A stretch of 64,000 nucleotides of DNA from an uncultured delta proteobacterium (lineage in GTDB: Bacteria; Desulfobacterota; Binatia; Binatales; Binataceae), in contig CAVQAR010000036.1 in assembly GCA_963710425.1 (NCBI GenBank), positions 34,416 to 98,415 of the forward strand, read 5' to 3'. The position numbers and the translations under genes are program-made. Under the pieces are notes generated by a model. That model had not been told where the DNA came from. It searched no databases and saw nothing but the letters and a program-made list of their open reading frames with translations. Positions 11,083 through 26,257 of this stretch are shown piece after piece; within the stretch, counting starts at the first letter, position 1; every line of letters starts with the position of its first letter.

Positions 11083-11085
11083 CGG

Positions 11086-12341: not shown

Positions 12342-12393
12342 CGGAGCTTTGTTGATCGGCGCGGCTGACGGTCGAATCTGCGGTCAGCGATGG

Positions 12394-14187
12394 TCAGTTA
12401 ACCAGACCGCCGTTACCGGCGAGATCTTCAGGCGACATAAATTGCAGGTCGTAAAGTTTGCGGTATTCTTTTCCGCGCGCAAACAGTTCGTCGTGCGTGC
12501 CGTCTTCGACGATTCGGCCGTGAACGACCACCACGATTCGGTCGGCGCGGCGCACCGTCGAGAGGCGATGCGCGATCACCAGCGTCGTGCGATTTTCCAT
12601 CAGATGCTCGAGTGCTTCCTGCACCGACCGTTCCGAAGCCGAGTCGAGCGACGAGGTCGCTTCGTCGAGAATCAGAATCGGCGCGTCTTTGAGCAACGCG
12701 CGCGCAATCGCGATTCGCTGCCGCTCGCCGCCTGAGATCCGCACGCCCAGCTCGCCCACCATCGTGTCGTAACCGTTGGGCAGCCGCGAAATGAAGTCGT
12801 GCGCGTTGGCGAGCTTGGCGGCCGCGATCACTCGTTCAAGTTTTTTATCGCTGCTGCCGTACGCGATGTTGGCGCGAATCGTGTCGTCGAACAGGAACGT
12901 ACTCTGCGTCACGAGACCGATTTCCGCGCGCAGCGACTTGACTCGCAGCTTGCGCACGTCGATTCCGTCCACCGTGACGCGTCCCTGTTGCACGTCGTAA
13001 AAGCGCGGGATCAAATCGGCCATCGTCGATTTGCCTCCACCGCTCATCCCTACCAGCGCGACGACTTTGCCGACGCCAATCTCGAGGTTGATATCGTGCA
13101 ACACCCATTCGTCGCCGTACCGAAAGCTGACGTTTTCGAACGCGATGCTGTGCGCGCCGGATTGCAATTCGACTCCGTTCGGATCGTCGGGCACCTCGCT
13201 CGGAAGATCCATCATCTCGAATACGCGCTCCGCCGCCGCGAGTCCTTGCTGAATGCTGTTGTTGGTTTTGCCCAGCGCTTTGAACGGCCGATACACGAGG
13301 ATCATGGTTGTGAAAAATCCGGCGAATTGTCCGAGCGTGCGCGTGCCCGCTTGCAGCGATCCCACCGCCCACCAGACCACTGCGACCACTGCGACCGCGC
13401 CCAGCGCTTCGATCAACGGTCCCGTCAACGCCTTGATTCGCGCCACCCGCATGAAGATTCGGAACAGCCGCTTGAGCTCGCGATTGAAACGCATGCGCTC
13501 GTAATCTTCCATCCCGAACGCCTTGACGACGCGGTTTCCTTGAAAGGTTTCATGCAACAGCGATTGCAGGCCGCTCAGTTGTTTCTGCTGATTCTTGGTT
13601 TCACGGCGAACTTTTTTCGAAAGGCTCGCGATCGGCAGAACGATGATTGGGAACCCGACGAACGCGACGATCGCCAATCCCCAGTCGAGCCAAAAGGCTG
13701 TCACCAGCAACGCGATCAGCGACATGCCGTCACCGAAAATCGAAAACACGCCGTTGCTCAGGCTCGACACCACGAGGCCGGCGTCGCTGATAATTCGTGC
13801 AACCATCACGCCCGTCGGCGTCCGATTGAAAAAACTCAGCGACTGGCGCTGCAGGCTCTCATTAAGGTCGCCGCGAATATCGACCACCATCTTCTGAGTG
13901 ATGTACGAGCTCAGATAATCGTCGCCGAAGTTTGCAACCGCGCGCAGCAAGAATAATCCTGCCAGCAGCAGCGAGTATTCCCGCAGCTTCACGGCGCCGC
14001 CCGCATCGAGCTGATTGCCGACTTTCAGGTTGGTGACGAGATCGACCACCAGCTTTATAATGAACGGGATTCCCGCGCTGGCCGCCGACAGCAACAGCAT
14101 CGCCACCGCAAGCAGCAACACAAACGGAAATAAGTATGGTCGAATGTAGCCGAAGAGCCGCCGCTGCAGCGGGCTGAGCAGCTTCAT
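12394..14187 (-). CDS. msbA: Lipid A flippase ABC transporter
   Basis: N-terminal TM domain; GMSGGGKST, ISGGERQRIAIARA, ILDEATS; lies between lpxB and waaA. Confidence 0.92.
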   Translation of the reverse strand: MKLLSPLQRRLFGYIRPYLFPFVLLLAVAMLLLSAASAGIPFIIKLVVDLVTNLKVGNQLDAGGAVKLREYSLLLAGLFLLRAVANFGDDYLSSYITQKMVVDIRGDLNESLQRQSLSFFNRTPTGVMVARIISDAGLVVSSLSNGVFSIFGDGMSLIALLVTAFWLDWGLAIVAFVGFPIIVLPIASLSKKVRRETKNQQKQLSGLQSLLHETFQGNRVVKAFGMEDYERMRFNRELKRLFRIFMRVARIKALTGPLIEALGAVAVVAVVWWAVGSLQAGTRTLGQFAGFFTTMILVYRPFKALGKTNNSIQQGLAAAERVFEMMDLPSEVPDDPNGVELQSGAHSIAFENVSFRYGDEWVLHDINLEIGVGKVVALVGMSGGGKSTMADLIPRFYDVQQGRVTVDGIDVRKLRVKSLRAEIGLVTQSTFLFDDTIRANIAYGSSDKKLERVIAAAKLANAHDFISRLPNGYDTMVGELGVRISGGERQRIAIARALLKDAPILILDEATSSLDSASERSVQEALEHLMENRTTLVIAHRLSTVRRADRIVVVVHGRIVEDGTHDELFARGKEYRKLYDLQFMSPEDLAGNGGLVN

Positions 14188-15386
14188 GCGGCCATCCTCG
14201 ACGCGATCATCTCGAGCGCGATCGTCGCCACGCGTCCCGCCGCGCCGGGCGATCCGAGCTTCTCGCGCAACGACTTCAGCGCCGCGACCGTCTCCGCGCG
14301 GATCGTATCACTAAGCAGCGGCTCGGCCGCGCGCACCAGCTTCTCAACGGTGACGTCACGCTGTATAAGTTCCGGCACGATTTGCCGGCCCGCCAGGATA
14401 TTCGGCATTCCGATAAAATCGACTCCCTTCACCAGCATCCGGCCTAGGATATAGGTAAGCGGCGACGCTTTGTAGGCAATCACCTCGGGGCATCCGAGCA
14501 GCGCGGTCTCGAGCGTAGCAGTCCCCGACGCGACAATTGCCAGCTCGCTCGCCGCGACGATGTTGTAGGTGTCGTTCTCGACAATCTTGATTCCCGCCAG
14601 ATCTGTTCGTCCCACCTCGGCCAGCTCGGCCTGCGTCAACGTCGGCGCCAGCGCGAGCGCTATTTCGAGATTGTGATCGCGCGCGACAATCCGCGCCGCC
14701 TTGACCATCGGATCGAGCAGGTAGCGAACTTCGGCGCGGCGGCTTCCCGGCAGGATCGAAATGATCCGCGCGCGCGGCGCGAAGCCATGGCGCTTCAGCG
14801 TTTCATCGCGATTTTGCGCCGCGGCGACGAGGTCTAACAACGGATGCCCGACGAATGAAACCCGCTCGCCGGCGCGATGGAACAATTCGGCCTCGAACGG
14901 CAGCACCACCGCCAGCCGACCCGCGCGCTCGACCAGCTTGTCGACCCGACCGCGCCGCCACGCCCACACCTGCGGCGTAATATAGTAGAGCACCGGAACG
15001 CCGTTGCGCCGTGCGGTCCCGGAGAGAATCAGGTTAAACTCCGCATAGTCAATCAGGATCAGTAGGTCCGGCTTCTCGCGCCGGATGATTTGCCGCAGGG
15101 TGCGAAACGCGCCGACAGTCCGCCCAATGGTCGACGCCAGCTCCGAAAGTCCAAGCCCATGGATGTCCTCCATCCGGACGATCGCGCGCACGCCGACCGC
15201 GCGCATTTTCTCGCCTGCAATTCCGAACAGCTCACACGACGGATCGCGCGCGAGAATTTCCCGGGCCAAATCGCCGCCGTGAAGATCCCCCGACGCCTCG
15301 CCGGCAACGATCATGATGCGGCCTCGGCGCGCGGTATCTTTCAAGCGCTCGTCGGGCCGCGGTGGCGCTTCGGCATTCAACGGCAT
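14184..15386 (-). CDS. lpxB: Lipid-A-disaccharide synthase (start approximate)
   Basis: IVAGEASGDLHG, LIDYAEFN, YYITPQVWAWR, LPFE, FVGHPL, LPGSRRAE, SGTATLE. Confidence 0.96.
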   Translation of the reverse strand: MPLNAEAPPRPDERLKDTARRGRIMIVAGEASGDLHGGDLAREILARDPSCELFGIAGEKMRAVGVRAIVRMEDIHGLGLSELASTIGRTVGAFRTLRQIIRREKPDLLILIDYAEFNLILSGTARRNGVPVLYYITPQVWAWRRGRVDKLVERAGRLAVVLPFEAELFHRAGERVSFVGHPLLDLVAAAQNRDETLKRHGFAPRARIISILPGSRRAEVRYLLDPMVKAARIVARDHNLEIALALAPTLTQAELAEVGRTDLAGIKIVENDTYNIVAASELAIVASGTATLETALLGCPEVIAYKASPLTYILGRMLVKGVDFIGMPNILAGRQIVPELIQRDVTVEKLVRAAEPLLSDTIRAETVAALKSLREKLGSPGAAGRVATIALEMIASRMAA

Positions 15387-15441
15387 CGAAGCGATTGTGA
15401 TTGAAAACCCTTGCCTCGCAAATAGCCCCGCCCGTTCGATT

Positions 15442-15906
15442 TCAATTGTCCTGCGCGAAATTCCGACGGATGGCGTCACGTATCTGATCGACCGGCGATC
15501 CCTGCTCCGACATCCGCTTCGCCAGCAGCGCCTCGCCAGTGCAAATTTCGCACGACGCGCCATGCGTGCCGCGATAACAGTCGAGCAGGTTCTGATGCCC
15601 TTCCGCCTTGTCGCAACCGCAATAGCAATGCAGTTGCGCCAACAGCGCCGGGTTCTTCTCCGCGAATTTGTACGCTTCCTTTACCGGACCGACGAACTGG
15701 TTTGGATCGAGCGTCAGCCGCGGCTGCGCGTCTTTCGGCGCAGGAGCGTCCGCAGCCTCTGCCCGGCCCGTACAGCAGCAATGACCGGCGACGCACATTG
15801 CTCCGCGCGCATTGCCATTCACACTCGAACCGCCGAGCACCGGCCACATGTAGGCCAGCGCCAGGATCGCCGCGAACGAGGTGCCGAGAATTATTACGCG
15901 TCTCAT
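15442..15906 (-). CDS. PCYCGC/CYCXC-motif metal-binding protein, copy A
   Basis: LHCYCGC...GHQNLLDC...HGASCEIC; N-terminal hydrophobic anchor; extra MCVAGHCCC segment. Confidence 0.8.
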   Translation of the reverse strand: MRRVIILGTSFAAILALAYMWPVLGGSSVNGNARGAMCVAGHCCCTGRAEAADAPAPKDAQPRLTLDPNQFVGPVKEAYKFAEKNPALLAQLHCYCGCDKAEGHQNLLDCYRGTHGASCEICTGEALLAKRMSEQGSPVDQIRDAIRRNFAQDN

Positions 15907-16502
15907 GCTGCACCGCCCTTGTTCAGAGTTTTTTTGACGTCATCGACGATGTCCTGCGCTTTCACGACTTCGCCATTATATTCGCGGATTAGCCGGCCGT
16001 CCGGCCCAATCAACATCATATCCACCATATGGCCAACTGAACCATCCGGCTCGACTTGCCTGCTCAACTTGAATCCCGCCAGCGCCTGATCGACCTCCGC
16101 GGGCCCACCTGTCAGAAAATACCATCCCTTCTGATCCGCGCCCTGCTGACGCGAGTAGTCGAGCAATTGCTTCGGGCCGTCATGCTCCGGATCGACCGAA
16201 ATCGAAACGATCGTCACCTTCGAACCGATGTCGCTGCCCAGCCGCAGCGCGACGTTTTCCAACTTCGCCGTTTCCATCAGGCACGGCCCCGGGCACGAGG
16301 TGTAGATGAAGTCGACTACCATCGGCTTGCCCTTGAGCGACGTCAGCGCCACGGTGTTGCCGTTCTGATCGACGAGCTTGGCGTCGGTGAGAACGCTCTC
16401 GGCGGCCGCGCTTCCGGAATCACGATGGCATCCAGCGATCGCGAATAGACTAAACATCATTACTACAATGGCGAGAGATCTGAGATTACGGTGATTACTC
16501 AT
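15903..16502 (-). CDS. SCO1/SenC family copper chaperone lipoprotein, copy C
   Basis: Lipobox IAGC; LVDQNG; DFIYTSCPGPC (CxxxC); ISVDPEHD; FLTG; conserved His in VGH. Confidence 0.92.
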   Translation of the reverse strand: MSNHRNLRSLAIVVMMFSLFAIAGCHRDSGSAAAESVLTDAKLVDQNGNTVALTSLKGKPMVVDFIYTSCPGPCLMETAKLENVALRLGSDIGSKVTIVSISVDPEHDGPKQLLDYSRQQGADQKGWYFLTGGPAEVDQALAGFKLSRQVEPDGSVGHMVDMMLIGPDGRLIREYNGEVVKAQDIVDDVKKTLNKGGAA

Positions 16503-16539
16503 CTATATATCCTTCAATAGTTAGTTGGCATTTGATTAC

Positions 16540-17406
16540 TCAATGGGGCGGCGGCGTATTAGCCAGTACCGCCGACCATCCGAGCACCGCTCCCAACAGC
16601 GCGCATTCCACCGCAACATTGCGAATCAGCGACGCGCGCGCCGACGACTCATCTACCGACCCTACCAGTCGATACCGGTTGTAGCCGCCGATCAATATCA
16701 CCGTGGCCGCCGTGCCGACCTTCCAGAGCAGCGTGCGTCCATAGATCGAATTCACCAGCAGATCGAGTTGTACTCCCAGTACCTCCCACGCTCTGATCAC
16801 GCCGGTGACGAGTAAAGCGGCGACTGACCATCCTGCAATCTGAGATACCCGCGAAGTCGCCGACCGCAGCCAATCTGCTCCCGCATGTCCGTACGTCGCG
16901 CCTATCAGCAATGAGACCAGCGCGCCAATCCACATCCCCGCCGCCGCCTGGTGTATAAATTGAATCGTGATCGCGAATGCGCCCTTGTCCACGGCGTGAC
17001 TCGTAATGCTTTGAAACGCGAGCAGAGCCGCCGAGATGACGAACATCAGCGCTGTGGCGAGCCGCCCCGGCGCGGGAATCCACGCCACCAGAGCCAATAG
17101 TAGCACGGTCGCCAGCCTCCACGTCCATACGCGGCCGGCGAAGGTTTCGCGCATTATTTGCGGCATCGACGGCAGCACTTCCCTGAAGGTCGAGTCCGCC
17201 ATCCCAGCGCCGATGGACCACAGCCTGAGCGGCGACATCACCAACACGATCAGCGCGAGCACCCGCCAAAGCACTAGCATGCTTCGCACCGATACGTCGC
17301 CAGCGACGACCGCACGCGGCGCCGCAAACAACGCAAAAGCTGTGGTTCCGAAGATCAGCACCTGCGCCCCAACCAACGGCCACGCGAATATCGGTTGCGG
17401 AATCAC
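16540..17406 (-). CDS. copD: CopD family inner-membrane copper transport protein
   Basis: Multi-TM; SITSHA, HQAAAGMWIG, TGVIRA, YGRTLLWK, IGGYNRY; GTG start overlaps the copC stop. Confidence 0.88.
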   Translation of the reverse strand: MIPQPIFAWPLVGAQVLIFGTTAFALFAAPRAVVAGDVSVRSMLVLWRVLALIVLVMSPLRLWSIGAGMADSTFREVLPSMPQIMRETFAGRVWTWRLATVLLLALVAWIPAPGRLATALMFVISAALLAFQSITSHAVDKGAFAITIQFIHQAAAGMWIGALVSLLIGATYGHAGADWLRSATSRVSQIAGWSVAALLVTGVIRAWEVLGVQLDLLVNSIYGRTLLWKVGTAATVILIGGYNRYRLVGSVDESSARASLIRNVAVECALLGAVLGWSAVLANTPPPH

Positions 17407-17783
17407 GATCCGCCGTTGGCGACCGTAAACGTGTACGAGCCCTGGGTGTGATGCGTATCGATGCAAACGACCGCCCACTTGACCTGGTAGTCGCCGGGTT
17501 TCAGTGGCGGGACCTTGACCGACAAACGGATGCCGTCGTCGCTGACTTGCGCTGGGCCATCGGCTTCGTTGGTGCCGTCGGCACCCACTACTTCCAGCTT
17601 GGCGAACAGCTTCTCGATCGGTGCGTCAAACTTGATCACGACCTCGGGCGGCGACGAGGCAACCTTTTGTCCTGCCGATGGAGTTTCCTGTTCGGGAAAC
17701 GAATGCGCCCGCGCTACCATCGGATTACTCAGTCCAATAGCCAGTAGCGCTGACGCGTATAGCCATATAGCCGATTTCTTCAC
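17403..17783 (-). CDS. copC: CopC periplasmic copper-binding protein
   Basis: Signal peptide then ARA|HSFP (N-terminal His); PGDYQVKWAVVCIDTHHTQGSYTF (DxH ligands). Confidence 0.92.
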   Translation of the reverse strand: MKKSAIWLYASALLAIGLSNPMVARAHSFPEQETPSAGQKVASSPPEVVIKFDAPIEKLFAKLEVVGADGTNEADGPAQVSDDGIRLSVKVPPLKPGDYQVKWAVVCIDTHHTQGSYTFTVANGGS

Positions 17784-18706
17784 TCGCCGGGTCCTCGATT
17801 AATGGTCCAGTTGCCCCACTTCGGGAAAAACGAATCGTAAAATATGTCGAGCAATCCGATTATCGTGGCGTGACTCGCGGGCACCGTCGCATTGTTCAGC
17901 GCGAACTGAGTACCCAGACTCAATTCGTAGTGATAGCTGACGTAGGCGATGCCCGGCGTCGCCAGGATAGTCGGAAAGGTCTGGCCCGACGGCCCTCGGA
18001 CTAGCTGATCGTAGTTGAATTCCGTGAACAGGAAGAGATTTCGGAACGGCCATTTGAGTCCGATGTCCTGAACGTTGTTGCTGAGGTACGGCAGCGAATA
18101 TTCGATCACTACGTCGGCAAACAGATCGTGGCTGGTTTGCCCGCCCAAGGCCGGCAGATAGCCGACATCGCCTTGAAATCCCAACGGCCGCAGATACTTC
18201 AGCACCGGCAAATTGGGAAGATCGCCCAAGGCCTTCTCCCACAAGAACTCCGGACCGAGGCTGGTATGGCTCTGATCCCGGATGTCCTTGTTGCCGACGG
18301 GGAGATCGGCGACCAACGCAATCGATGTGAGAAACTCGTGTTCGAGTGAATAGTAAAAGGCCCATTTCGCCGCCACTTCCGGATTGTCCACGCCTTCGTG
18401 GCTCGGGCCCTGGTACGGTGAAACATGATGCCACGCCGTTCCGGCCGCGAGACTGAATCTCGGCATATAGTTGTCGTCGATCCAAAGGACCTTCTCGCCT
18501 GAGAATCCGATCGAGTAGTCATTGGCGTCGCTGCTCTTGACCCACGACGGTTCGAGAATGTCGAGCTCATTCGCCGGAGTCGGGTCCTCGGCGATAAGCG
18601 GTTCCAGGAACACGTAGTCCCCGACGACTCCATGTGCGTGCGCCGCGCTCGCGCGCATCGCAAACACTATCATCAAAGTTAGAACCAGCTTCCTTCGCAC
18701 AAACAT
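17780..18706 (-). CDS. Secreted, probable outer-membrane beta-barrel protein directly upstream of copC (start approximate)
   Basis: Signal peptide AAHA|HGVVGD; alternating aromatic/hydrophobic beta-strand pattern; stop overlaps the copC start. Confidence 0.55.
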   Translation of the reverse strand: MFVRRKLVLTLMIVFAMRASAAHAHGVVGDYVFLEPLIAEDPTPANELDILEPSWVKSSDANDYSIGFSGEKVLWIDDNYMPRFSLAAGTAWHHVSPYQGPSHEGVDNPEVAAKWAFYYSLEHEFLTSIALVADLPVGNKDIRDQSHTSLGPEFLWEKALGDLPNLPVLKYLRPLGFQGDVGYLPALGGQTSHDLFADVVIEYSLPYLSNNVQDIGLKWPFRNLFLFTEFNYDQLVRGPSGQTFPTILATPGIAYVSYHYELSLGTQFALNNATVPASHATIIGLLDIFYDSFFPKWGNWTINRGPGE

Positions 18707-18754
18707 CCTCCCGAGCCGCGTCAGGCCGATCAATTGACTACTTCCGACGGGCGA

Positions 18755-19201
18755 TTATTCCGCCGGCAGCCCGGCGATCGAGCGTAAATACACGAACAGC
18801 GCGCCCGCGAACAACGCCATGTCCAGCACTAGCTCCAGCCACATCCTTGGTCGCGACGGCGCGCCGGCTCCGAAACAGCCGCAGTCGAGCGTGAGACCTC
18901 GAAACAGCGCGGACGCCAAGGCTGTGAAAAATATTGCAGAGAGTAAAATGATCGCGAGCGCACCGATGCGCCTGGTCCGCGGCCCCAGCAGCAAGAGGCC
19001 GCATGCAATCTCAAATGGCGGCAGCGCGAGAGCCAGCAAGCTTATAAACACCGCCGGCAGGATCCCGAATGCGGCGATGCTGTCCGCGAACTGCAGCGGA
19101 TCGCGGATCTTGTCGATGGCCGCGTAGATGAAAATCCCGGCCATGGCCAGGCTGACCGCCAGCACTGCATAGGCGTGAAGCCGGTTGTCGGATACCGTCA
19201 T
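18755..19201 (-). CDS. MauE/DoxX family membrane redox protein
   Basis: GIFIYAAIDKI, LPPFEIACG, GLTLDCGCFG. Confidence 0.88.
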   Translation of the reverse strand: MTVSDNRLHAYAVLAVSLAMAGIFIYAAIDKIRDPLQFADSIAAFGILPAVFISLLALALPPFEIACGLLLLGPRTRRIGALAIILLSAIFFTALASALFRGLTLDCGCFGAGAPSRPRMWLELVLDMALFAGALFVYLRSIAGLPAE

Positions 19202-19788
19202 CGTTCGCTCCCCGCAGACGCCGGCAGCCCCGCGGCCGACCATGCATCCCATCCTCCGGTGAAGACGCGGACATTGCCGAAGCCAAGACTCAGCAACGCG
19301 TTTGCGACGAGGCGGCTGTCATGACAGTCGCCGCCGGAGCAGTACACGATGATCGGCTTGTCATGGGCGGCCTGCAGCACTCCTGCCAGCCGTCTATAAT
19401 CTTTCGGGAAGTCGTCTCGCGCGAGATTGAGCGCTCCCGGAACGTGTCCCTGCTCGAAGAAGACGGACGGGCGGGCATCAAGGATGAGTGCACTCTTGCT
19501 CTGGACAGCTGAACGGAATTCATCGAGTCCGACCGTCGCCGCCGGTGCGAGCTTGAACGGCGGCGCCGCGACCAGAGTCGTCAGCTCGGCATCGAACCGC
19601 TGCTCCGGCGTTTGATAGACGATAGGAAGTGGAGCGCGTGAAAAATGGTTCATCACGAGTCCAGCCGCCAGGGACGCGATTGCGAGCAGGGAAACGCCGC
19701 CGAGATCGCGCAAAATTCGCAATCGGAGACTCTTTGCTCGAGGCAGCCGGGCTGAATCGGGAGTGCCAATCGATACTGTTGAAGTCAT
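19198..19788 (-). CDS. Membrane-anchored rhodanese-like domain protein
   Basis: N-terminal TM; ILDARP..F.QGHVPGA.N; IIVYCSGGDCHDS; VFTGGWDAW; ATGA overlap with MauE. Confidence 0.9.
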   Translation of the reverse strand: MTSTVSIGTPDSARLPRAKSLRLRILRDLGGVSLLAIASLAAGLVMNHFSRAPLPIVYQTPEQRFDAELTTLVAAPPFKLAPAATVGLDEFRSAVQSKSALILDARPSVFFEQGHVPGALNLARDDFPKDYRRLAGVLQAAHDKPIIVYCSGGDCHDSRLVANALLSLGFGNVRVFTGGWDAWSAAGLPASAGSER

Positions 19789-20221
19789 CTGAGTGAGCGG
19801 GAAGGCCGGTTGCCAATTACTTCGCTTCCATTCAATGCTGCCCGGCGGTCGTAACGAATCGCCATGAACGAGGCGCGATCACGTTCTTGCTCCGCCTGCA
19901 GCTCATATTCATTGCGCTCATGCTCCGCGATATTGGCGTTTTCCTGGTCCGCAGTGACGCGGCATTGCGAAATTTCGCGATCGCGCTCGTGATTTACCCC
20001 TGCATCTGTGATTCAGCGGAAGCGTCAGGAGTTGCTGCTATGCGCGCCATCTCATCATGGCTACGAGATCAGGGCTTCGTCGATGCACCGTTTCTCGCTC
20101 GCATCGAGTGCTCGTCTCTGTTTTTCCAACTGTGCGAGCCTTGGATCCGAGTCGCTTTCCGGATGTTTGAAGAAGCGCATCCAGCCAACAGGATGATTGC
20201 GACTAAGACGAGCTTCTTCAT
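19785..20221 (-). CDS. Hypothetical helical lipoprotein, broken by at least two indels (end uncertain)
   Basis: MKKLVLVAIILLAGC lipobox; coding-like continuation in other frames (DPRLAQLEKQRRALDASEKRCIDEAL; NHERDREISQCRVTADQENANIAEHERNEYELQAEQERDRAS). Confidence 0.5.
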
Positions 20222-20255
20222 AGAAGCGGTTGCACTGGAGAATTGCTCTTGAGCG

Positions 20256-20807
20256 TCAGGGCTTGGCGTTAGGATCCGCCGCAGACTTTTGCGGTAACAG
20301 CGGTAACACCGCGTCCGACAGGCTCTTTTCAGTAACCGTTGTTTGGTCGGGCGTGAGCTTTGCGCGCACCACTCCATTTCCATCCACGACAACCGTCATC
20401 GGAAGAGCGTCAGGGGTCCCGAAATCGTTGACTTTGGCGTCATCGAGCATCGCCGCAGGATAGCTGTATGATTGCATAACCTTGGTTACATCGGATCGGT
20501 CGTGTGGACGGTCGGCGCTCACGCCGATCATCTCGAGACCTTGGCCGTGATACCGCCGGTAGAAAGCGTCGAGAGCCGGCATCTCCTCGCGGCAAGGCGG
20601 ACACCAAGTGGCCCAAAAGTTCACGATTACGACTTTTCCGCGCTGCGCACTTAGATCGAACGTTTGTCCGTCCAGTTCAGGCACGTCCAGCGCGGGAGCA
20701 GGGTTGCCGACGGTTGCGGAGGCGAACGCCAAGACGGCTCCATAAATGATCGCGAGCAACTCCCGCACGCCAGCAAACCACGAGTATGTCGTGCGCATCT
20801 TTGGCAT
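20256..20807 (-). CDS. TlpA/ResA-like thiol-disulfide oxidoreductase (start uncertain)
   Basis: VVIVNFWATWCPPCREEMPAL; LPMTVVVDGNG. Confidence 0.92.
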   Translation of the reverse strand: MPKMRTTYSWFAGVRELLAIIYGAVLAFASATVGNPAPALDVPELDGQTFDLSAQRGKVVIVNFWATWCPPCREEMPALDAFYRRYHGQGLEMIGVSADRPHDRSDVTKVMQSYSYPAAMLDDAKVNDFGTPDALPMTVVVDGNGVVRAKLTPDQTTVTEKSLSDAVLPLLPQKSAADPNAKP

Positions 20808-20810
20808 TGG

Positions 20811-21275
20811 TCAATTTCCCCCGGCGTATTGCCTGCGGATCGCATCGCGTATCTGATCTACCGGCGAACCCTGCCCTGCCAGCTGCTGGGCCATCAACGC
20901 CTCGCCCATGCAGATCTCGCACTTCGAGCCGTGATCGCCTCGATAACAGTCGAGCAGATTCTGATGGCCGTACTCCCGGTCACATCCGCAGTAGCAATGC
21001 AGTTGAGCCAGCAGCGCAGGATTCTTCTCCGCAACCTGGTACGCCTGCTTTGCTGGCCCGACGAACTGATCGGGATCGGGTGTCAAGCGTTCGTTTGCGC
21101 CGATAGCCGCGACAGTCTCTGCATGCCCCCGTCGGGCGCAGCAGCAATGACCCGCGATACACATCATGCCGCGCGAGCTGCTATTTTCCATCGATGAAGC
21201 ACCAAACGTCGGCCACAGATATGCCACTGCCAGAACGGCCGCCGCCGTAGAGCCCAAAATTATCGCTCGCTTCAT
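20811..21275 (-). CDS. PCYCGC/CYCXC-motif metal-binding protein, copy B
   Basis: LHCYCGC...GHQNLLDC...HGSKCEIC; MCIAGHCCC segment; paralog of 15442..15906. Confidence 0.8.
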   Translation of the reverse strand: MKRAIILGSTAAAVLAVAYLWPTFGASSMENSSSRGMMCIAGHCCCARRGHAETVAAIGANERLTPDPDQFVGPAKQAYQVAEKNPALLAQLHCYCGCDREYGHQNLLDCYRGDHGSKCEICMGEALMAQQLAGQGSPVDQIRDAIRRQYAGGN

Positions 21276-21282
21276 GTGGCTC

Positions 21283-21873
21283 TCAACTGTTGTTCAGCGT
21301 TTTCTTGACGTCCTCGACGATATCCTGAGCCTTTACGGCTTCGCCGTTGTATTCGCGCACTATCCGCCCATCTGGCCCGATCAACATCATGGAGATCAGG
21401 TGCCCAACCGAACCGTCCGGCTCGATTTGGCGGCTGAGCTTGAAACCGGCCAGCGCCTTGTCGACGTCCGCCGGTCCTCCCGTCAGGAAATACCATCCCT
21501 TCTCATCTGCGCCCTGCTGATGCGAGTAATTGAGCAACTGTTTGGGTCCGTCATGTTCGGGATCGACCGTGATCGAAACCAGCGTCACTTTCGAACCAAG
21601 ATCGTTGCCCAGCCGCAGCGCTACGTTCGCAAACTTTGCGGTCTCCATCAGGCAGGGACCGGGACATGTCGTGTAGATGAAATCCACCACCATCGGCTTG
21701 CCCTTGAGCGACTCGAGCGAGAGCGTGTTGCCATTCTGATCGACGAGCTTGGTGTCCGTAAGGACACTAGCGCCCTCCGCGGTTGAGTCGCTGTGGCATC
21801 CAGCAGCCGCAAACAAGCTTGAAATTACTATTGCCGTGATTCCGATAGATCTGAGACTTCGATGAATACTCAT
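21283..21873 (-). CDS. SCO1/SenC family copper chaperone lipoprotein, copy B
   Basis: Lipobox AAGC; DFIYTTCPGPC; VGH; close paralog of 15903..16502. Confidence 0.92.
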   Translation of the reverse strand: MSIHRSLRSIGITAIVISSLFAAAGCHSDSTAEGASVLTDTKLVDQNGNTLSLESLKGKPMVVDFIYTTCPGPCLMETAKFANVALRLGNDLGSKVTLVSITVDPEHDGPKQLLNYSHQQGADEKGWYFLTGGPADVDKALAGFKLSRQIEPDGSVGHLISMMLIGPDGRIVREYNGEAVKAQDIVEDVKKTLNNS

Positions 21874-21953
21874 ATCTGCATCTCTTAGTAGTTATAATTC
21901 TCTAGTTGCCGTTAAGCGCCAACACATCAATGTGGTCCACTGTTTTTGTCGCA

Positions 21954-22949
21954 TCAGAAGCTGTAGCTCAGAATCAGCTTGGTCGCGTAGGCCGCAGTCA
22001 GCTGATAGCCCCTGATGTTTTGAAAAACCGGGACCTCTATGTCTGCGTAAGCCCGGATGACCCCGATTTTGATCTCGCCTCCCGGCGCAAGGATCAGACG
22101 GGTGTAGCCGCTGGCCCCTGGATTTGCGTTATTTCCTGTGTCCCGCGTACGGTCTGAGGCGAGAAAGGTGAGCATCGGAGCGAGTTCCTTGAGAAAACCA
22201 ACTTTGCCGAAGTCGTAGTACGCTCCTACTGCACCATCTACTTCCCTGCCCGGTGTGTATTGGTCCTGTGCCCACAGCGGCAAATCGTAGTTGACCTGCA
22301 CGAAGTAGTTGAAGGGGCGCTCCTTGAAAGTCAGCGGCAAACTCCCCAACTTCGTCGGGATCGTTCCTAGGTGGTAGGCGCCCAGCAGTAGATCGGTGCT
22401 TCCGGTGCCAATCTGCGTATCCCGATCGTAGGGTGGATAGGTCCATTGGCCGCTTGGAACCTTGACTCCCGCCATAAGTCCGGTCGACATGTCCTCCGAT
22501 AGACCCGTATACATCCCCTGGATCCGAATATCGCCGATAGAGTTATCCTGGAACCAGTGAATATCGGAGTTGTTACCGTTATAAGCACCCTTGTAATTAC
22601 GCTCCCAATACGGCACCTCGAGCATCACTCCCCAATCTCGATTGAACATGTACTGAACGCCGGCCTCCATGAAGTTCGTCCGGATGTACTTGTCGTTATT
22701 GTAGAACTCGGAGGCAGGCTGGGTCGCCTTAAAGTTTATGTACTGATCCATGTATTCATATTGAAACCACACCTGGCCGCCGGACCCCTGAGGAAACAGT
22801 GATGCGGTTCCTACCTCGAAGATTCCACATCCGCATGCACACGCCCAAACCAGGCCCGGCGTTAGGCCGATCACTAAAATCGTCGCTAGCAACACGCGCC
22901 TGGCCCTCTCACCGAAAGCCTGGCGCTCCGAAATAAGATTCCTCTGCAT
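21954..22949 (-). CDS. Putative outer-membrane beta-barrel protein with N-terminal CACGCG motif
   Basis: Signal peptide LVWA|CACGCG; GDIRIQG and QIGTGSTDLLLG resemble the MetA-pathway/transporter barrel family; C-terminal ILSYSF (terminal Phe). Confidence 0.65.
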   Translation of the reverse strand: MQRNLISERQAFGERARRVLLATILVIGLTPGLVWACACGCGIFEVGTASLFPQGSGGQVWFQYEYMDQYINFKATQPASEFYNNDKYIRTNFMEAGVQYMFNRDWGVMLEVPYWERNYKGAYNGNNSDIHWFQDNSIGDIRIQGMYTGLSEDMSTGLMAGVKVPSGQWTYPPYDRDTQIGTGSTDLLLGAYHLGTIPTKLGSLPLTFKERPFNYFVQVNYDLPLWAQDQYTPGREVDGAVGAYYDFGKVGFLKELAPMLTFLASDRTRDTGNNANPGASGYTRLILAPGGEIKIGVIRAYADIEVPVFQNIRGYQLTAAYATKLILSYSF

Positions 22950-22961
22950 AAACGTCCACCC

Positions 22962-22977
22962 CGGCCACATGTGGCCG
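22962..22977. promoter_or_regulatory. Perfect 16-bp palindrome CGGCCACATGTGGCCG next to the SD-like GGGGTGGA of the CACGCG barrel gene
   Basis: The palindrome is seen directly; a regulatory role is inferred. Confidence 0.35.
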
Positions 22978-23046
22978 CACCGGATGCTCGCGAGGCCATC
23001 CAGCCTGCAAGCAAGCATGTATTGACGAAAATGTGAGAATTCCTTG

Positions 23047-23364
23047 CTAGGAAAGCAGCTTGGGCGGCGGCGGATCGGGAGATTCGGCAAAGTTACATTT
23101 CAGAATGGGAACGAATTGAGCGAAGGTTTCATGCGAAAGAATTCGCGTGCCCATTTCCGGTTGCGCCGGGCGGGCAATCAATATCGCTGGCGCGCTGTCG
23201 AGCGATTGCAGCGGATGACAGATGTCCATCGAGATGCTCGGCCCTGAACGATCGGCAATGACGATCAGACCGATCGACGGCAGACTCGCCATCATTATGA
23301 CCAATGCCATCGCCGCGGCCAGCTGCCGCATCGAAGTTCGATCAATAGTCAATGCAGCAGTCAT
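23047..23364 (-). CDS. Small exported-type protein with proline-rich C-terminus (DUF2946/CutF-like leader candidate)
   Basis: Hydrophobic N-terminus, central DICH, C-terminal SPDPPPPKLLS; ATG immediately follows the SCO stop. Confidence 0.55.
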   Translation of the reverse strand: MTAALTIDRTSMRQLAAAMALVIMMASLPSIGLIVIADRSGPSISMDICHPLQSLDSAPAILIARPAQPEMGTRILSHETFAQFVPILKCNFAESPDPPPPKLLS

Positions 23365-23365
23365 C

Positions 23366-23983
23366 TCAGCTTCTGCCGCGCGCCTGATCGACGTCGGCGG
23401 CCACTGAATCGGGACTGACATCGAGCGCGTTGTACTGCCTCAACTGATGGCCGTCGGGACCAAGCAGAAATGCGGATATCGAGTGAGTAATCGTGCCGTC
23501 ACCCTCGCGCGTCCGGCGCAGCTTGAACTGCGCGAGCACCTGGTCGATTTGCGCCGGCGGTCCGGTCAGGAAAATCCAGCCGGGGCCGTCCGCATCGTGG
23601 CTCTTCGCATACTTCGCGAGCGCTGCCGGACTGTCATGCTCGGGATCGAGCGAGATCGAAACGATGGTAACGTCGGCTCCCAGGGCGGGTCCGAGCTGAT
23701 GCGCGATCGCCGCCATCTTCGCCGTCAACATCGGGCAGGTCGAGGCGCACGACGTGTAAATGAAATCGATCAGCACCGGCTTGCCTTTCAGCGACGCGAG
23801 CGAGACCGCCGCGCCATGCTGATCGACAAGACTCACGTCAGGCAGGCAATTATTCCCGTTAGCGGCCGGATAGTCGCCGCGCGCCTCGCGATCGCCGCAT
23901 GCCGACAGCGTAAGGATTGCCACCAGACTGACTAGTCCCAGGGCGCGGCGATACTGCCTAATGGTGTGGCTATCAAACATCAA
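23366..23983 (-). CDS. SCO1/SenC family copper chaperone lipoprotein, copy A (divergent)
   Basis: Lipobox LSAC; DFIYTSCASTCP; ISLDPEHD; FLTG; ITHS His ligand. Confidence 0.9.
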   Translation of the reverse strand: MMFDSHTIRQYRRALGLVSLVAILTLSACGDREARGDYPAANGNNCLPDVSLVDQHGAAVSLASLKGKPVLIDFIYTSCASTCPMLTAKMAAIAHQLGPALGADVTIVSISLDPEHDSPAALAKYAKSHDADGPGWIFLTGPPAQIDQVLAQFKLRRTREGDGTITHSISAFLLGPDGHQLRQYNALDVSPDSVAADVDQARGRS

Positions 23984-24005
23984 GTTGCTATAGCTACTCG
24001 AATAG

Positions 24006-24443
24006 TCAGAAGAGCGCGTGTCCGGCTTTTAGGTCAGCGCTCTTGATACGCACGATTCCAGAGTCGTCTTGATGCGGCAGGCTCGCTGGCACGCATGAGG
24101 CCTTGCCGTCCGTCATGTGAGCGATTGGATAGTGGTTCCCGCACACCCGGCAGATCAATTCGTTGCCAACTACCCGGTAGCCGCGATGGAACGCGAAGCA
24201 TTGCCGGCACGCGTCGAACACCGAGTGGACTTTACCGTCGTTGCCGCGCGCCAGGATGAAGCGCAGACGCCTGCCCGCGTCATCGGTGTAGCAAAATAGC
24301 TTCGCGCTGCCCGGACGTAGCGAGGACACGTTGACCGCGACGTCGCCCGGGCCGGGCACCATCGTGCAGTCCGAGTTCGCGGTGAACATGAGAAATGCCG
24401 CGCCGGCGGCCAGGATCACACCGCCTAAAATCTTGAGCCTCAT
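24006..24443 (-). CDS. DUF2318-type predicted Fe-S/metal-binding membrane-anchored protein (start approximate)
   Basis: FDACRQC...GY...ICRVCGNHY...SCVP pattern; N-terminal TM. Confidence 0.75.
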   Translation of the reverse strand: MRLKILGGVILAAGAAFLMFTANSDCTMVPGPGDVAVNVSSLRPGSAKLFCYTDDAGRRLRFILARGNDGKVHSVFDACRQCFAFHRGYRVVGNELICRVCGNHYPIAHMTDGKASCVPASLPHQDDSGIVRIKSADLKAGHALF

Positions 24444-24486
24444 CGTACGCATTGCGCTCCAATGCTGTCGCAGCACACTGCGGACG

Positions 24487-25449
24487 TCAAGGCGCGACCG
24501 CGTCGGTCAACATTACTTCCTTGATCCGTTCGGTCAGTTCCATCACGCGCAGTCCGTCCTCGGCGCTGACCGCGGGCGTCGATCGGCTGCGCACCGAATC
24601 GACGAACGCTTTGACCTCGTCCGCCAGCGGATCGCCTTCGCCGAAATCGATCTGCTCGGCCGAAATTGTCGGGAACTGCGCGCCGCGCACCGGCGGAGTT
24701 TTGCGATACATCTGGATGCTGCGCGCCTCGTAATCCACCGAGATGTACGCATCGGGCTGAAAAAAGCGAATTTTGCGCTCGCGCCGCGCCGACACGCGGC
24801 TGGACACGAGATTTGCGATCAACCCGCTCTGGAAGCGGACGCGCGCGTTGGCGAGATCGATCCGGTCGGTGAGAATTGCGACCCCGACCGCCTCCAACGA
24901 CGCGACTTCCGACGGCGCCACCGACAGGATCACGTCGAGGTCGTGCACCATCAAGTCGAGCACCACATCCACGTCGGTGCCGCGCTCGGTGAACGGCGCG
25001 AGCCGATGGCATTCCACGAAGCGCGGATTTTTCACAATCGAATGCAGATGGACGACCGCTGGATTGAATCGCTCGAGGTGGCCGATCTGTAGAATGCGCC
25101 CGCTGGCCGACGCGAGCGCCGCCAGTTCGTGAGCCTGCATCAGCGTCTCGGCCATCGGCTTTTCCAACAGCACGTCGATGCCCGCTTTCAGCATCGCAGC
25201 CGCAATCTCGTGATGCGTCACACCCGGCGACGCAATCGTTACGAGATCCACTTTTCCGATTAGCATCCGATAGTCCGCGAGCGGCGTCGCGTCAACTTCC
25301 TTCGCCAGCGCCCCCGCACGCTCAGTATCGATATCCACGATGTGCGCGAGCTTGATGCCTGCGAGCGCGGCGTACTTGCGCGCGTGGAGAGTCCCGAGCC
25401 GTCCCGCGCCAACTACAGCGGCCCGCAGCTCAGCCAACGGTTTCGGCAT
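24487..25449 (-). CDS. Gfo/Idh/MocA oxidoreductase, probable GnnA-like UDP-GlcNAc 3-dehydrogenase
   Basis: VVGAGRLG, LLEKPMA, QIGHLERFNP, DVVLDLMVHDLD; follows lpxA-lpxI, the usual gnnA position. Confidence 0.75.
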   Translation of the reverse strand: MPKPLAELRAAVVGAGRLGTLHARKYAALAGIKLAHIVDIDTERAGALAKEVDATPLADYRMLIGKVDLVTIASPGVTHHEIAAAMLKAGIDVLLEKPMAETLMQAHELAALASASGRILQIGHLERFNPAVVHLHSIVKNPRFVECHRLAPFTERGTDVDVVLDLMVHDLDVILSVAPSEVASLEAVGVAILTDRIDLANARVRFQSGLIANLVSSRVSARRERKIRFFQPDAYISVDYEARSIQMYRKTPPVRGAQFPTISAEQIDFGEGDPLADEVKAFVDSVRSRSTPAVSAEDGLRVMELTERIKEVMLTDAVAP

Positions 25450-26257
25450 AGCCGTATATCGTCACGTTCTTCGCGCGCGCGAGTTCGAGCGTGCGATCGC
25501 TTTCGAGTATCAGCGCAACGCCGGCTTCAAGGCCAATCATCGACGCGCCGATCTCCGCGAGTAGTTCCACCGTCGCCGGGCCGATCGCGGGGCGGTCGAA
25601 GCGCATGTCCTGTCCCGGTTTCGCGGTCTTGGCCACCACCAGTCCCGCGCCGACCAGCGCGGCCGCGCGACGAAGCGCGGCGTCGGTTCCTTCAAGCGCC
25701 TCGACTGCCGCCACCATTCCGTCACGAACCGCGACCGTCTGCCCGATATCGTAGCTGCCGAGCCGGCGCGCAATCTCGAATGCGAGATCGAGATCGCGGC
25801 GTTGCGATGCAGTCGGTTCGGGACCGGCGCCGACGCCAGCGCGCGCGAGCCAATGCGCAATCATCGGCACCGGATCGATCATCTTGATGTTTTCGGCTTC
25901 GACTTCGCGCGCGACGCCGCGCAGCACGGCGTCATCGCTGAAGCGCCCGATCCCCGCGAGCATCTTGAGCGCGCGCGCGTCGGGTGCGAACGAGTCTTTC
26001 AGGCGCGCGCGTGAGATGCCGCCGGCCATCGCGGCTTCCGCGACGCCCGCGTTTTTGAATACGTCGACAATTTTTTGCAGCTCGCCAACTTTGATCCAGG
26101 TGACTTCGTCGATTACTGAGTCGAGCGCGCGATCGCTTTCATTGAGGTGCGCGACCGCGACGATTTTTATTCCGCGTTCGCGGGCGGCGCGCGCAACTTC
26201 GAGCGGGAAGACGCCGTTGCCTGCGATTAGGCCGAGCTTATTCACGCTCGCGGCCAA
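25430..26257 (-). CDS. lpxI: UDP-2,3-diacylglucosamine diphosphatase LpxI
   Basis: LGLIAGNGVFP, DIGQTVAV, AVEALEGTDA, KPGQDMRFDRPAIG. Confidence 0.93.
   Translation of the reverse strand: MAASVNKLGLIAGNGVFPLEVARAARERGIKIVAVAHLNESDRALDSVIDEVTWIKVGELQKIVDVFKNAGVAEAAMAGGISRARLKDSFAPDARALKMLAGIGRFSDDAVLRGVAREVEAENIKMIDPVPMIAHWLARAGVGAGPEPTASQRRDLDLAFEIARRLGSYDIGQTVAVRDGMVAAVEALEGTDAALRRAAALVGAGLVVAKTAKPGQDMRFDRPAIGPATVELLAEIGASMIGLEAGVALILESDRTLELARAKNVTIYGYAETVG

What the first reader, a model, noticed from the sequence alone, without database searches (positions are those of the whole stretch)
22950..23364. Candidate copper-sensing ribosome-stalling leader ahead of the CACGCG barrel
Seen: a 105-aa ORF with an export-type hydrophobic N-terminus, a DICH site, a second Cys, and C-terminal SPDPPPPKLLS. 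A 97-nt spacer follows, containing a perfect 16-bp palindrome, a GGATG..CATCC stem, and an alternative CATCCGG/CCGGGGTG pairing that would cover the SD-like GGGGTGGA of the barrel gene. Established: DUF2946-type upstream ORFs (Bordetella CruR, Rhodobacter CutF) combine a signal peptide, a Cys metal motif and a Pro-rich arrest tail to control the downstream copper gene post-transcriptionally. Inference: this is a divergent member with CH instead of CxxC, which would explain why the cluster has no transcription factor.
Basis: partly seen in the sequence, partly recalled or inferred. Interest (0 to 1): 0.7.

Follow-up and report, generated by a model that had tools for sequence, protein, structure and literature searches.

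The report
Proline-tailed copper-sensor leader peptide candidate
A small exported protein with one invariant cysteine and an invariant triple-proline four residues before its stop codon sits before an outer-membrane channel gene in nearly all Binataceae; it looks like a new, sequence-unrelated version of the CutF/CruR copper-sensing ribosome-stalling leaders.

Summary
The ORF is real and lies on the minus strand (23364..23047, 105 aa). It belongs to an unnamed family found in 135 of 151 Binataceae genomes and in none of 297 other genomes of the phylum.

The family has four parts:
- an N-terminal export or transmembrane segment;
- a [DN]-I-C-H-P motif, in which only the Cys is invariant;
- a linker that is almost random in sequence (16% identity) but fixed in length (Cys to PPP is 49-52 residues in 97% of members);
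- an invariant PPP followed by K/R/E and three residues before the stop.

A structured spacer of about 100 nt follows. After it comes an outer-membrane gene: the CACGCG barrel, a "HGVVGDY" protein with CopCD, or a TonB-dependent receptor.

True DUF2946 genes sit before homologues of the same barrel in Ralstonia and in one Binataceae genome. The family itself shows no detectable homology to DUF2946 (HMMER none; hhalign 2.3%).

There is no expression data. I class it as a new variant of a known kind.

The parts
23047..23364 (-). 105-aa small ORF, the candidate sensor or arrest peptide. ATG is at 23364 and the TAG stop at 23049..23047. The start lies 1 nt after the TGA of the upstream SCO1 gene.
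   Evidence: The family is conserved, with dN/dS 0.21-0.35. Most homologues are 106 aa and share the same start.
23254..23325 (-). N-terminal hydrophobic export or transmembrane segment (residues 14-37), preceded by R9 and R13. The predicted orientation is N-in, C-out.
   Evidence: Read from the sequence. AlphaFold2 places a helix at residues 9-26. A hydrophobic run is present in all representatives.
23215..23226 (-). D47-I48-C49-H50, part of the family motif [DN]-[ILV]-C-[HQ]-P. C49 is invariant. H50 is common but is replaced by Q, N, R, S or T in some subgroups.
23080..23214 (-). Linker (residues 51-95). Its sequence is almost random across the family (16% pairwise identity; rich in A, P, L and S), but its length is fixed. 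No regular secondary structure is predicted after residue 56.
23059..23079 (-). P96-D-P-P-P-P-K102, the candidate arrest motif. The family consensus is P-[DE]-x-P-P-P-[KRE], followed by 3 residues and the stop.
   Evidence: P99-P101 are invariant. Exactly 4 residues follow the PPP in 74 of 89 representatives. Synonymous divergence is lower in the tail (pS 0.22) than in the linker (0.48).
22950..23046 (-). 97-nt intercistronic spacer. The first ~40 nt are pyrimidine- and AU-rich and poorly paired. Two hairpins follow, then the SD.
   Evidence: The spacer is 93-125 nt in most loci and more structured than shuffles (mean z -1.32). Its sequence is conserved whether a barrel or a HGVVGDY-type gene follows. 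A covariance model finds it only in close relatives.
22986..23012 (-). Hairpin SL1: GCUUGCAGGC-UGGAUG-GCCUCGCGAGC.
   Evidence: Present in the minimum-free-energy and centroid folds and in the RNAalifold consensus. Few compensatory changes are seen.
22962..22977 (-). Only the CGGCC/GGCCG arms are conserved. It abuts the SD.
22947..22962 (-). SD-like GGGGUGGA followed by the ATG of the barrel gene.
21954..22949 (-). Downstream gene: a 331-aa outer-membrane barrel with a CACGCG motif after the signal peptide and a terminal Phe. It is homologous to a Ralstonia PF13557 (Phenol_MetA_deg) barrel that follows a true DUF2946 gene.
23366..24476 (-). Upstream genes: FtrD-like PF10080 protein (24476..24006) and SCO1 (23983..23366). 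An FtrD-like gene lies upstream of the small ORF in 58 of 75 loci.

Best explanation
The 105-aa ORF most likely encodes an exported nascent-chain sensor of the CutF/CruR type: a regulatory ORF whose own translation controls the gene behind it. All steps below are inferred; none has been observed.

Proposed sequence of events:
1. The peptide is inserted co-translationally through Sec, N-in and C-out.
2. When the ribosome reaches the EF-P-dependent P-D-P-P-P-P-K tract, four codons before the stop, the Cys49-His50 motif about 50 residues upstream has just emerged on the periplasmic side.
3. The copper or thiol state at that Cys then sets how long the ribosome dwells at the end of the ORF. This may involve a partner such as the co-encoded FtrD-like Cys4 protein, SCO or TlpA.
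4. The dwell time is transmitted through the conserved, structured ~100-nt spacer to the outer-membrane barrel gene and probably the genes behind it. One route is keeping the C-rich Pro-codon tract from pairing with the G-rich SD, as in SecM and CutF. The other is hindering Rho loading on the unstructured stretch after the stop, as in CruR.
5. Because the regulated genes look like copper acquisition and cuproenzyme-assembly genes, repression by copper is the more likely sign.
For: 1. The ORF is a real coding gene under purifying selection. It is near-universal in Binataceae: 135 of 151 genomes and 28 of 30 genera. It is absent from 297 other genomes of the phylum.
2. The conservation pattern fits a motif-and-ruler device rather than a fold. 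Only C49 and P99-101 are invariant in 75 diverse members. The linker has 16% identity, yet Cys to PPP is 49-52 residues in 86 of 89 members, and PPP is followed by exactly 4 residues in 74 of 89. CruR shows the same logic: its CxxC-RAPP spacing is conserved within 1-2 residues, RAPP lies 3 residues from the end, and changing the spacing by five residues strongly reduces regulation by copper (PMC9426467).
3. AlphaFold2 on 75 sequences gives a TM helix, a beta-hairpin and then coil, with pTM 0.38.
4. The only long intercistronic gap next to the ORF follows it: 97 nt here and 93-125 nt in most loci. The upstream junction is 1 nt. Spacers are structured (mean z -1.32, n=63). The spacer sequence travels with the ORF whatever follows it.
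5. The downstream gene in 78 unique loci is the barrel (40), a HGVVGDY protein with CopCD (30), a TonB-dependent receptor (2) or SCO (3). These are the same classes that follow DUF2946 genes (PMC9426467).
6. Bona fide DUF2946 genes sit 90-95 nt upstream of homologues of this barrel. One is in Ralstonia (L102). The other is in Binataceae genome G387, where TlpA follows the barrel (L103).
7. In 17 of 75 loci no FtrD-like gene lies upstream. In L030 the ORF appears to head a TonB-receptor unit.
8. EF-P is present in this genome, and Rho is present in complete genomes of the same genus.
9. There is no transcription factor in the cluster, which lies inside a lipid A operon.
10. PPP is described as a particularly strong staller that needs EF-P (bioRxiv 10.1101/2025.02.05.636593).
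Against: The family shows no detectable homology to DUF2946.

It has a single Cys, so it lacks an obvious intramolecular copper site or disulfide of the kind CutF has.

In this window the ORF is internal to an operon and is probably translationally coupled to SCO1.

An RNA switch is not demonstrated:
- The hairpins show almost no compensatory changes.
- The pairing between the tail and the SD is predicted, but it is no better than with shuffled or permuted partners.
- Masking or shuffling the tail does not change the predicted SD accessibility.
- A ribosome stalled at PPP would not reach SL1 or SL2.

The whole peptide is under purifying selection, including the linker within the genus (dN/dS 0.34). 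This is also compatible with an ordinary functional protein.

The FtrD-like gene is equally lineage-restricted and is adjacent in 77% of loci.
Confidence: 0.6

Rival explanations
1. It is an ordinary small membrane-anchored periplasmic protein. It could be a copper chaperone, an adaptor or an assembly factor working with the FtrD-like Cys4 protein and/or the outer-membrane channel. On this view the PPP tail is a structural or interaction motif, and the spacer is just an intercistronic region with mRNA-stabilising hairpins.
For: Purifying selection acts along the whole peptide. The TM segment and the DRSGPSISMDICHPLQSLD region are well conserved within the genus. AlphaFold2 mean pLDDT is 77.6, with a hairpin next to the Cys. 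The FtrD-like gene is adjacent in 58 of 75 loci, is also restricted to Binataceae, and its copy number co-varies with that of the small ORF. The RNA switch is unproven.
Against: This view does not explain several observations:
- a linker of near-random sequence keeps its length to +/-1 residue;
- PPP lies exactly 4 residues from the stop;
- the one long, conserved, structured gap always follows this gene;
- DUF2946 leaders occupy the same slot before the same barrel.

In addition, the FtrD-like gene is missing in 23% of loci, whereas an outer-membrane gene follows in about 90%. pTM is only 0.38.
Confidence: 0.25
2. The regulatory element is the spacer itself. It could be an operator (the CGGCC-N6/7-GGCCG inverted repeat) for a regulator encoded elsewhere, or an RNA element or sRNA target. 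On this view the small ORF is unrelated to regulation.
For: The inverted-repeat arms are conserved while the centre is free. A conserved AU-rich block lies after the stop. Spacers are structured.
Against: The spacer sequence is conserved only within the genus, whereas the ORF features are family-wide. No promoter-like site was found. This view does not explain the Cys-PPP ruler. No Rfam search was run.
Confidence: 0.08
3. This is a mechanistic sub-rival within the leader model. Control acts through Rho-dependent termination in the spacer, as for CruR, rather than through SD occlusion, as for CutF and SecM.
For: The first 45 nt after the stop have more C than G in 71% of loci and are the least paired part of the spacer. 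Rho is present in the genus. A ribosome stalled four codons before the stop cannot melt SL1 or SL2. The test for pairing between the tail and the SD was not specific.
Against: The C over G bias is weak (30% against 25%). Essential lpxB, msbA, kdtA and lpxK lie downstream in the same orientation, so termination here would be polar unless internal promoters exist.
Confidence: 0.25

Closest known systems
CruR (Bp2923) of Bordetella pertussis, DUF2946/PF11162 (PMC9426467)
   Same: - It is a small protein with an N-terminal export signal, a Cys metal motif and a Pro-containing arrest motif 3-4 residues from the C-terminus.
[quoted passage not shown]
- A long intergenic region precedes an outer-membrane transporter.
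- The operon content is shared: TonB receptors, Sco, CopC and AhpC/TSA-type proteins.
   Different: - There is no detectable sequence homology.
- This family has one Cys (C-H-P) rather than CxxC, and PPP[KRE] rather than RAPP.
- The ORF is usually not the first gene; it follows an FtrD-like gene.
- The spacer is about 100 nt rather than 162.
- The family is restricted to Binataceae.
CutF of Rhodobacter capsulatus, cutFOG operon (PMC9973294; bioRxiv 10.1101/2025.02.05.636593)
   Same: - It has a Sec-type signal, a periplasm-exposed Cys motif, and a C-terminal PPP whose EF-P-dependent stalling is proposed to free the downstream RBS.
[quoted passage not shown]
   Different: - CutF has CxxxC plus two further Cys and controls a multicopper oxidase (detoxification, switched on by copper).
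- Here there is a single Cys and the controlled genes are outer-membrane uptake-type genes.
- A stem-loop that shields the SD is not demonstrated here.
SecM of Escherichia coli (classical secretion-monitoring arrest peptide; from general knowledge and as cited in the two papers above)
   Same: It is an exported leader whose arrest point lies a few codons (about four) before the stop. The stalled ribosome changes the mRNA structure around the next gene's RBS.
   Different: The arrest motif differs (…RAGP). SecM senses secretion activity, not a metal, and it is the first gene of its operon.

Membership tests
DUF2946 / CruR family (PF11162) | Match to the Pfam model, or profile-profile similarity | tested here: not met
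   No Pfam hit for the window protein. No PF11162 hit in any of 75 family members at E<=10. hhalign against an 8-sequence DUF2946 alignment gives probability 2.3%, with only 8 columns aligned around D-x-C.
DUF2946 / CruR family (PF11162) | N-terminal signal peptide or an N-in/C-out TM segment | tested here: met
   There is a hydrophobic run at residues 14-37 after R9 and R13. AlphaFold2 places a helix at 9-26. A hydrophobic run is present in all representatives. No dedicated signal-peptide predictor was available.
DUF2946 / CruR family (PF11162) | Invariant CxxC (CxxxC in CutF) copper motif | tested here: not met
   There is a single invariant Cys within [DN]-I-C-[HQ]-P. Of 89 representatives, 32 have only one Cys in the whole protein.
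DUF2946 / CruR family (PF11162) | [quoted passage not shown] | tested here: not met
   The motif is P-[DE]-x-PPP-[KRE] with four residues after the PPP. It is analogous to RAPP but not the same motif.
DUF2946 / CruR family (PF11162) | Spacing between the metal motif and the arrest motif conserved to within 1-2 residues | tested here: met
   Cys to PPP is 50-51 residues in 75 of 89 members and 49-52 in 86 of 89, despite 16% linker identity. The value differs from the 45 intervening residues of CruR.
DUF2946 / CruR family (PF11162) | First gene of the operon | tested here: not met
   In the window the ATG lies 1 nt after the SCO1 stop, and FtrD-like and SCO1 genes are upstream. An FtrD-like gene is upstream in 58 of 75 loci. 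The feature appears to be met in a minority of loci, for example L030.
DUF2946 / CruR family (PF11162) | Long intergenic region followed by a TonB receptor or copper-homeostasis genes | tested here: met
   The spacer is 97 nt here and 93-125 nt in most loci. What follows is a barrel (40), HGVVGDY with CopCD (30), a TonB receptor (2) or SCO (3).
DUF2946 / CruR family (PF11162) | Copper-dependent ribosome stalling that controls the downstream gene | not testable with these tools
   This needs reporters, toeprinting or profiling.
CutF-like proteins, rule-based definition of PMC9973294 | [quoted passage not shown] | tested here: met
   The protein is 105 aa. PPPP lies at residues 98-101 of 105. 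There is a hydrophobic N-terminus. The barrel gene starts 97 nt downstream on the same strand.
CutF-like proteins, rule-based definition of PMC9973294 | Reachable by iterative sequence search from CutF (one of the 29 SSN clusters) | not tested
   No CutF sequence or SSN data were at hand. The HMMER and hhalign tests against DUF2946 were negative.
CutF-like proteins, rule-based definition of PMC9973294 | Stem-loop that shields the SD of the downstream gene and is opened by the stalled ribosome | tested here: inconclusive
   The SD is predicted to be about 70-75% paired, and its main predicted partner is the Pro-codon tail. Consensus folds place a long-range tail-RBS helix. However, there is no covariation and no specificity over shuffled, permuted or masked controls.

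The most novel reading that the evidence does not exclude
This family may be an independent, non-homologous reinvention of the exported copper-sensing arrest peptide that works with a single cysteine. On this reading, sensing needs a partner in trans. The nascent chain's lone Cys-His, just emerged from SecYEG, would form a copper-bridged or mixed-disulfide link with the co-translated FtrD-like Cys4 protein (or with SCO or TlpA). That tether would set the pulling force on a ribosome paused at PPP. It would be a two-component nascent-chain sensor embedded in mid-operon, inside a housekeeping lipid A operon.
Probability: 0.2. Interest if true: 0.8.

Novelty: new variant of a known kind. Interest (0 to 1): 0.58.

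Why it matters
Copper-sensing arrest peptides (CruR in 2022; CutF in 2023-2025) are a very recent class and are so far tied to DUF2946. This finding would add a second family that cannot be linked to DUF2946 by sequence but has the same architecture, in an uncultured soil and peat lineage. That would show that the design is general or convergent: an export signal, a metal ligand, a fixed ruler, and a poly-Pro near the stop.

The family's extreme simplicity would help define the minimal requirements for transmembrane stalling. It has one invariant Cys, an invariant PPP and a linker of free sequence but fixed length.

It would also explain how a copper-uptake cluster inserted into a constitutive lipid A operon can be regulated without a transcription factor.

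Finally, it gives a name and a testable role to a protein that current databases list only as hypothetical, with no Pfam or NCBIfam model, and that is found in about 90% of Binataceae genomes.

Tried and rejected
- Pfam and NCBIfam scans of the ORF gave nothing. A Pfam scan of 75 members at E<=10 gave only scattered chance hits. A PDB profile search gave nothing.
- hhalign against DUF2946 was not significant. To build that alignment I fetched true DUF2946 genes from the Cupriavidus and Ralstonia megaplasmids. pMOL30 gave only a sub-threshold hit, and pSymB gave none.
- I tested a clamp between the Pro-codon tail and the SD. It is predicted, but masking or shuffling the tail does not change SD accessibility. 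Duplex energies are no better than with shuffled RBS (z +0.23) and only marginally better than with permuted RBS (p 0.055). I therefore do not claim it.
- Synonymous-site conservation per codon in the tail is not clearly different from other invariant codons. Region-wise pS is lower in the tail, but that rests on only 10 codons.
- The covariance model of the spacer finds only close relatives, so it gives no deep covariation test. A MAFFT/alifold run on the PDTPPPK subgroup gave no usable consensus.
- Look-ups of three distant members returned contigs of only about 1 kb.
- The promoter and terminator scan found no promoter-like site, and two terminator-like sites (fewer than the shuffles gave) that both lie upstream in or beyond the FtrD-like gene, none in the spacer.
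- I considered a chance ORF and rejected it on conservation and dN/dS.
- I considered a C-terminal sorting signal and rejected it because only 4 residues follow the PPP.

Full report
**What is there.** The feature lies on the minus strand. A 105-aa ORF runs from ATG 23364 to TAG 23049..23047. It starts 1 nt after the TGA of an SCO1 gene (23983..23366), which is itself preceded by an FtrD-like PF10080 gene (24476..24006).

The ORF product reads as follows:
- R9 and R13, then a 24-residue hydrophobic segment (residues 14-37).
- D47-I-C49-H50-P51.
- A Pro/Ala-rich stretch.
- P96-D-P-P-P-P-K102-L-L-S, then the stop.

A 97-nt spacer follows (23046..22950). It holds the 16-nt palindrome CGGCCACATGTGGCCG (22977..22962) and GGGGTGGA, 5 nt before ATG 22949 of a 331-aa protein. 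That protein has a VWA|CACGCG N-terminus and a terminal Phe.

**It is a real gene family.**
- A word-indexed search found 287 proteins, mostly 106 aa and 70-94% identical. They are unnamed or 'hypothetical', and several come from Candidatus Binatus.
- An exhaustive profile search of 1.8 billion cluster representatives found 97 clusters.
- In whole genomes, a profile of 75 diverse members hits 135 of 151 genomes of the window's family (90 of 95 high-quality genomes; 28 of 30 genera; 1-5 copies each).
- The same profile hits none of the 297 genomes sampled from the rest of the phylum. Record titles name the family Binataceae.
- dN/dS among 28 close homologues is 0.24 (TM segment), 0.21 (Cys region), 0.34 (linker) and 0.35 (tail). 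The peptide is therefore translated and constrained.
- There is no Pfam, NCBIfam or PDB relative.

**Conservation pattern.**
- In 75 members at 21-70% identity, the only invariant columns are C49 and P99-P101. P51 and P96 are nearly invariant.
- The Cys motif is [DN]-[ILV]-C-[HQ...]-P.
- The linker between the motifs has 16% mean pairwise identity, which is close to random. Even so, the distance from the Cys to the PPP that precedes K/R/E is 50-51 residues in 75 of 89 representatives and 49-52 in 86 of 89.
- Exactly four residues follow the PPP in 74 of 89.
- The second Cys (C90) is not conserved.
- AlphaFold2 on the alignment gives a helix (9-26), a beta-hairpin (33-46), a short helix (53-56) and then coil to the end. 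Mean pLDDT is 77.6 but pTM is only 0.38.
- This is the pattern of two motifs held at a fixed distance, not of a folded domain.

**Context.** I analysed 78 unique loci. They came from a genome-collection scan, which was biased because one search pattern was the tail itself, and from an unbiased profile search of Binataceae genomes.

The gene after the ORF is:

| Downstream gene | Loci |
|---|---|
| CACGCG barrel | 40 |
| Unrelated ~310-aa exported protein with mature N-terminus HGVVGDY, followed by CopC-CopD | 30 |
| SCO | 3 |
| TonB-dependent receptor (Plug plus barrel) | 2 |
| Other | 3 |

The spacer is 93-125 nt in most loci, whereas the junction upstream of the ORF is 1 nt here.

An FtrD-like gene lies upstream in 58 of 75 loci. 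This short FtrD-like protein is itself restricted to Binataceae within the class. In the other 17 loci the upstream gene is something else, such as a ZIP transporter or an SDR, and in L030 the ORF seems to head a TonB-receptor unit. The link to the outer-membrane gene behind it is therefore more constant than the link to the gene before it.

The window's cluster (15442..24476) lies between lpxI plus a GFO/IDH/MocA gene and lpxB-msbA-kdtA-lpxK. All are in one orientation, and there is no transcription factor.

**Comparison with DUF2946.** According to PMC9426467, the family is defined by:
- an export signal;
- CxxC;
- RAPP three residues from the end;
- a 45-residue spacing conserved to within 1-2 residues;
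- first position in the operon;
- a long intergenic region;
- downstream TonB receptors and Sco, PcuAC, CopC or AhpC-TSA genes.

CutF adds a PPP tail, dependence on EF-P, and a stem-loop that shields the next SD.

I fetched true DUF2946 genes from the Cupriavidus and Ralstonia megaplasmids and built an 8-sequence alignment. hhalign against the new family gives probability 2.3%. The family is therefore not a detectable member of DUF2946.

Two true DUF2946 genes nevertheless occupy the same slot:
- In Ralstonia (L102), a DUF2946 gene ending ...ARAPPLA lies 90 nt upstream of a 347-aa PF13557 barrel with an N-terminal FACATCGC motif. That barrel is homologous to the window's barrel (BLASTP E 1e-16 over the full length).
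- In Binataceae genome G387 (L103), a DUF2946 gene ending ...PRGPPSLA lies 95 nt upstream of a CACGCG barrel followed by TlpA. A second DUF2946 gene on the other strand precedes a probable TonB-receptor gene, judged by eye and cut by the locus end.

DUF2946 is rare in Binataceae (5 of 151 genomes) and absent from this assembly. The same regulated genes are therefore headed by DUF2946 in some genomes and by the new family in most Binataceae. This is the strongest argument for functional equivalence.

**The spacer.**
- Within the genus the spacer is conserved in sequence whether the barrel or the HGVVGDY gene follows. It is also kept in L019, where SCO follows.
- It has an AU- and pyrimidine-rich, poorly paired first ~40 nt (C exceeds G in 71% of loci). 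Then comes hairpin SL1 (22986..23012), then hairpin SL2 (CGGCC-loop-GGCCG) abutting the SD.
The loop is free in relatives.
- Across 63 loci, spacers fold more stably than dinucleotide shuffles (mean z -1.32; 63% below -1). The loci are related, so the p-value overstates independence.
- Compensatory changes are nearly absent.
- A covariance model finds only close relatives.

**How the tail might talk to the RBS.** The minimum-free-energy and centroid folds of the window pair the CCGCCGCCGCCC Pro codons with GGGGUGGACG. RNAalifold puts a long-range helix between the last ~25 nt of the ORF and the RBS or start codon in both subfamilies, in different registers. In 63 loci, about half of the predicted pairing of the SD is with the ORF tail.

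The controls fail, however:
- Masking or shuffling the tail leaves SD accessibility unchanged (0.315 against 0.313 and 0.317).
- Duplex energies are no better than with shuffled RBS, and barely better than with RBS taken from distant loci.

C-rich Pro codons pair with G-rich SDs by composition alone, so I do not claim this helix.

A Rho route as in CruR is equally open. Rho is present in the genus and an unstructured stretch follows the stop. Against it, essential lpx genes lie downstream. EF-P is present.

**Verdict.**
- The functional reading, an exported Cys-bearing and Pro-tailed leader that controls the outer-membrane gene behind it, is well supported by comparative anatomy. I give it about 0.6.
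- The main rival is an ordinary small periplasmic copper protein that partners the FtrD-like protein or the channel (about 0.25).
- Membership in DUF2946 is not supported.
- Nothing here shows stalling or a response to copper. Those need the experiments listed under next steps.
- An earlier agent of this scan reached the same reading for homologues in another genome. That is not independent evidence.

Noticed in passing
L102 (Ralstonia pseudosolanacearum GMI1000 megaplasmid NC_003296), 358-1884, minus strand: A bona fide DUF2946 gene (CLFC ... ARAPPLA) lies 90 nt upstream of a PF13557 (Phenol_MetA_deg) barrel. The mature N-terminus of that barrel carries C-A-T-C-G-C, like the CACGCG of the window's barrel. 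The Cys-tipped barrel family therefore extends to Proteobacteria, where it sits under a CruR-type leader.
   Followed up: partly
L103 (Binataceae genome G387, contig C90), 3-3354: Two divergently oriented DUF2946 genes. One (692-1006, minus strand; CALC ... SRGPPSLS) precedes a probable TonB-dependent receptor gene, judged by eye and cut by the locus end. The other (1468-1866, plus strand) has a His-rich HQHHHHHPGHDH block, a single C in TCPY, and ...PRGPPSLA. It precedes a CACGCG barrel and TlpA.
   Followed up: partly
window 22925-22949 (-), and A3 columns 155-175: In most relatives the barrel ORF has a second in-frame ATG five codons in, preceded by a strong GGAGGA (ATGCGGAGGAATCATATG). In the window that codon is ATT. 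The true start of the barrel gene may therefore differ between relatives, and the conserved GCGGAGGA may be an SD rather than codons.
   Followed up: partly
window 9964-26257 (-): The copper and thiol cluster (15442..24476) is inserted between lpxI plus a GFO/IDH/MocA gene and lpxB-msbA-kdtA-lpxK. All are co-oriented, with skp and bamA further upstream.
   Followed up: partly
window 17780-18733 (-): The window's own HGVVGDY-type gene, coupled to CopC-CopD, is not preceded by a small PPP-tailed ORF; MauE ends 21 nt before it. In many other Binataceae this gene type is the one directly behind the small ORF and its spacer.
   Followed up: no
L019:4319-4419: In this locus the barrel is absent and SCO follows the small ORF, yet the spacer motif is still present (46 bits with the covariance model). 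The spacer travels with the ORF.
   Followed up: no
window 21874-21953 (-): An 80-nt gap between the barrel and the next SCO gene is the second-longest intercistronic gap that I measured among the junctions from the FtrD-like gene to TlpA. I did not examine it.
   Followed up: no
genomes G335, G312, G447 and G353: Some Binataceae carry 4-5 copies of the small-ORF family. In L008 and L026 two copies lie within 4 kb of each other.
   Followed up: no
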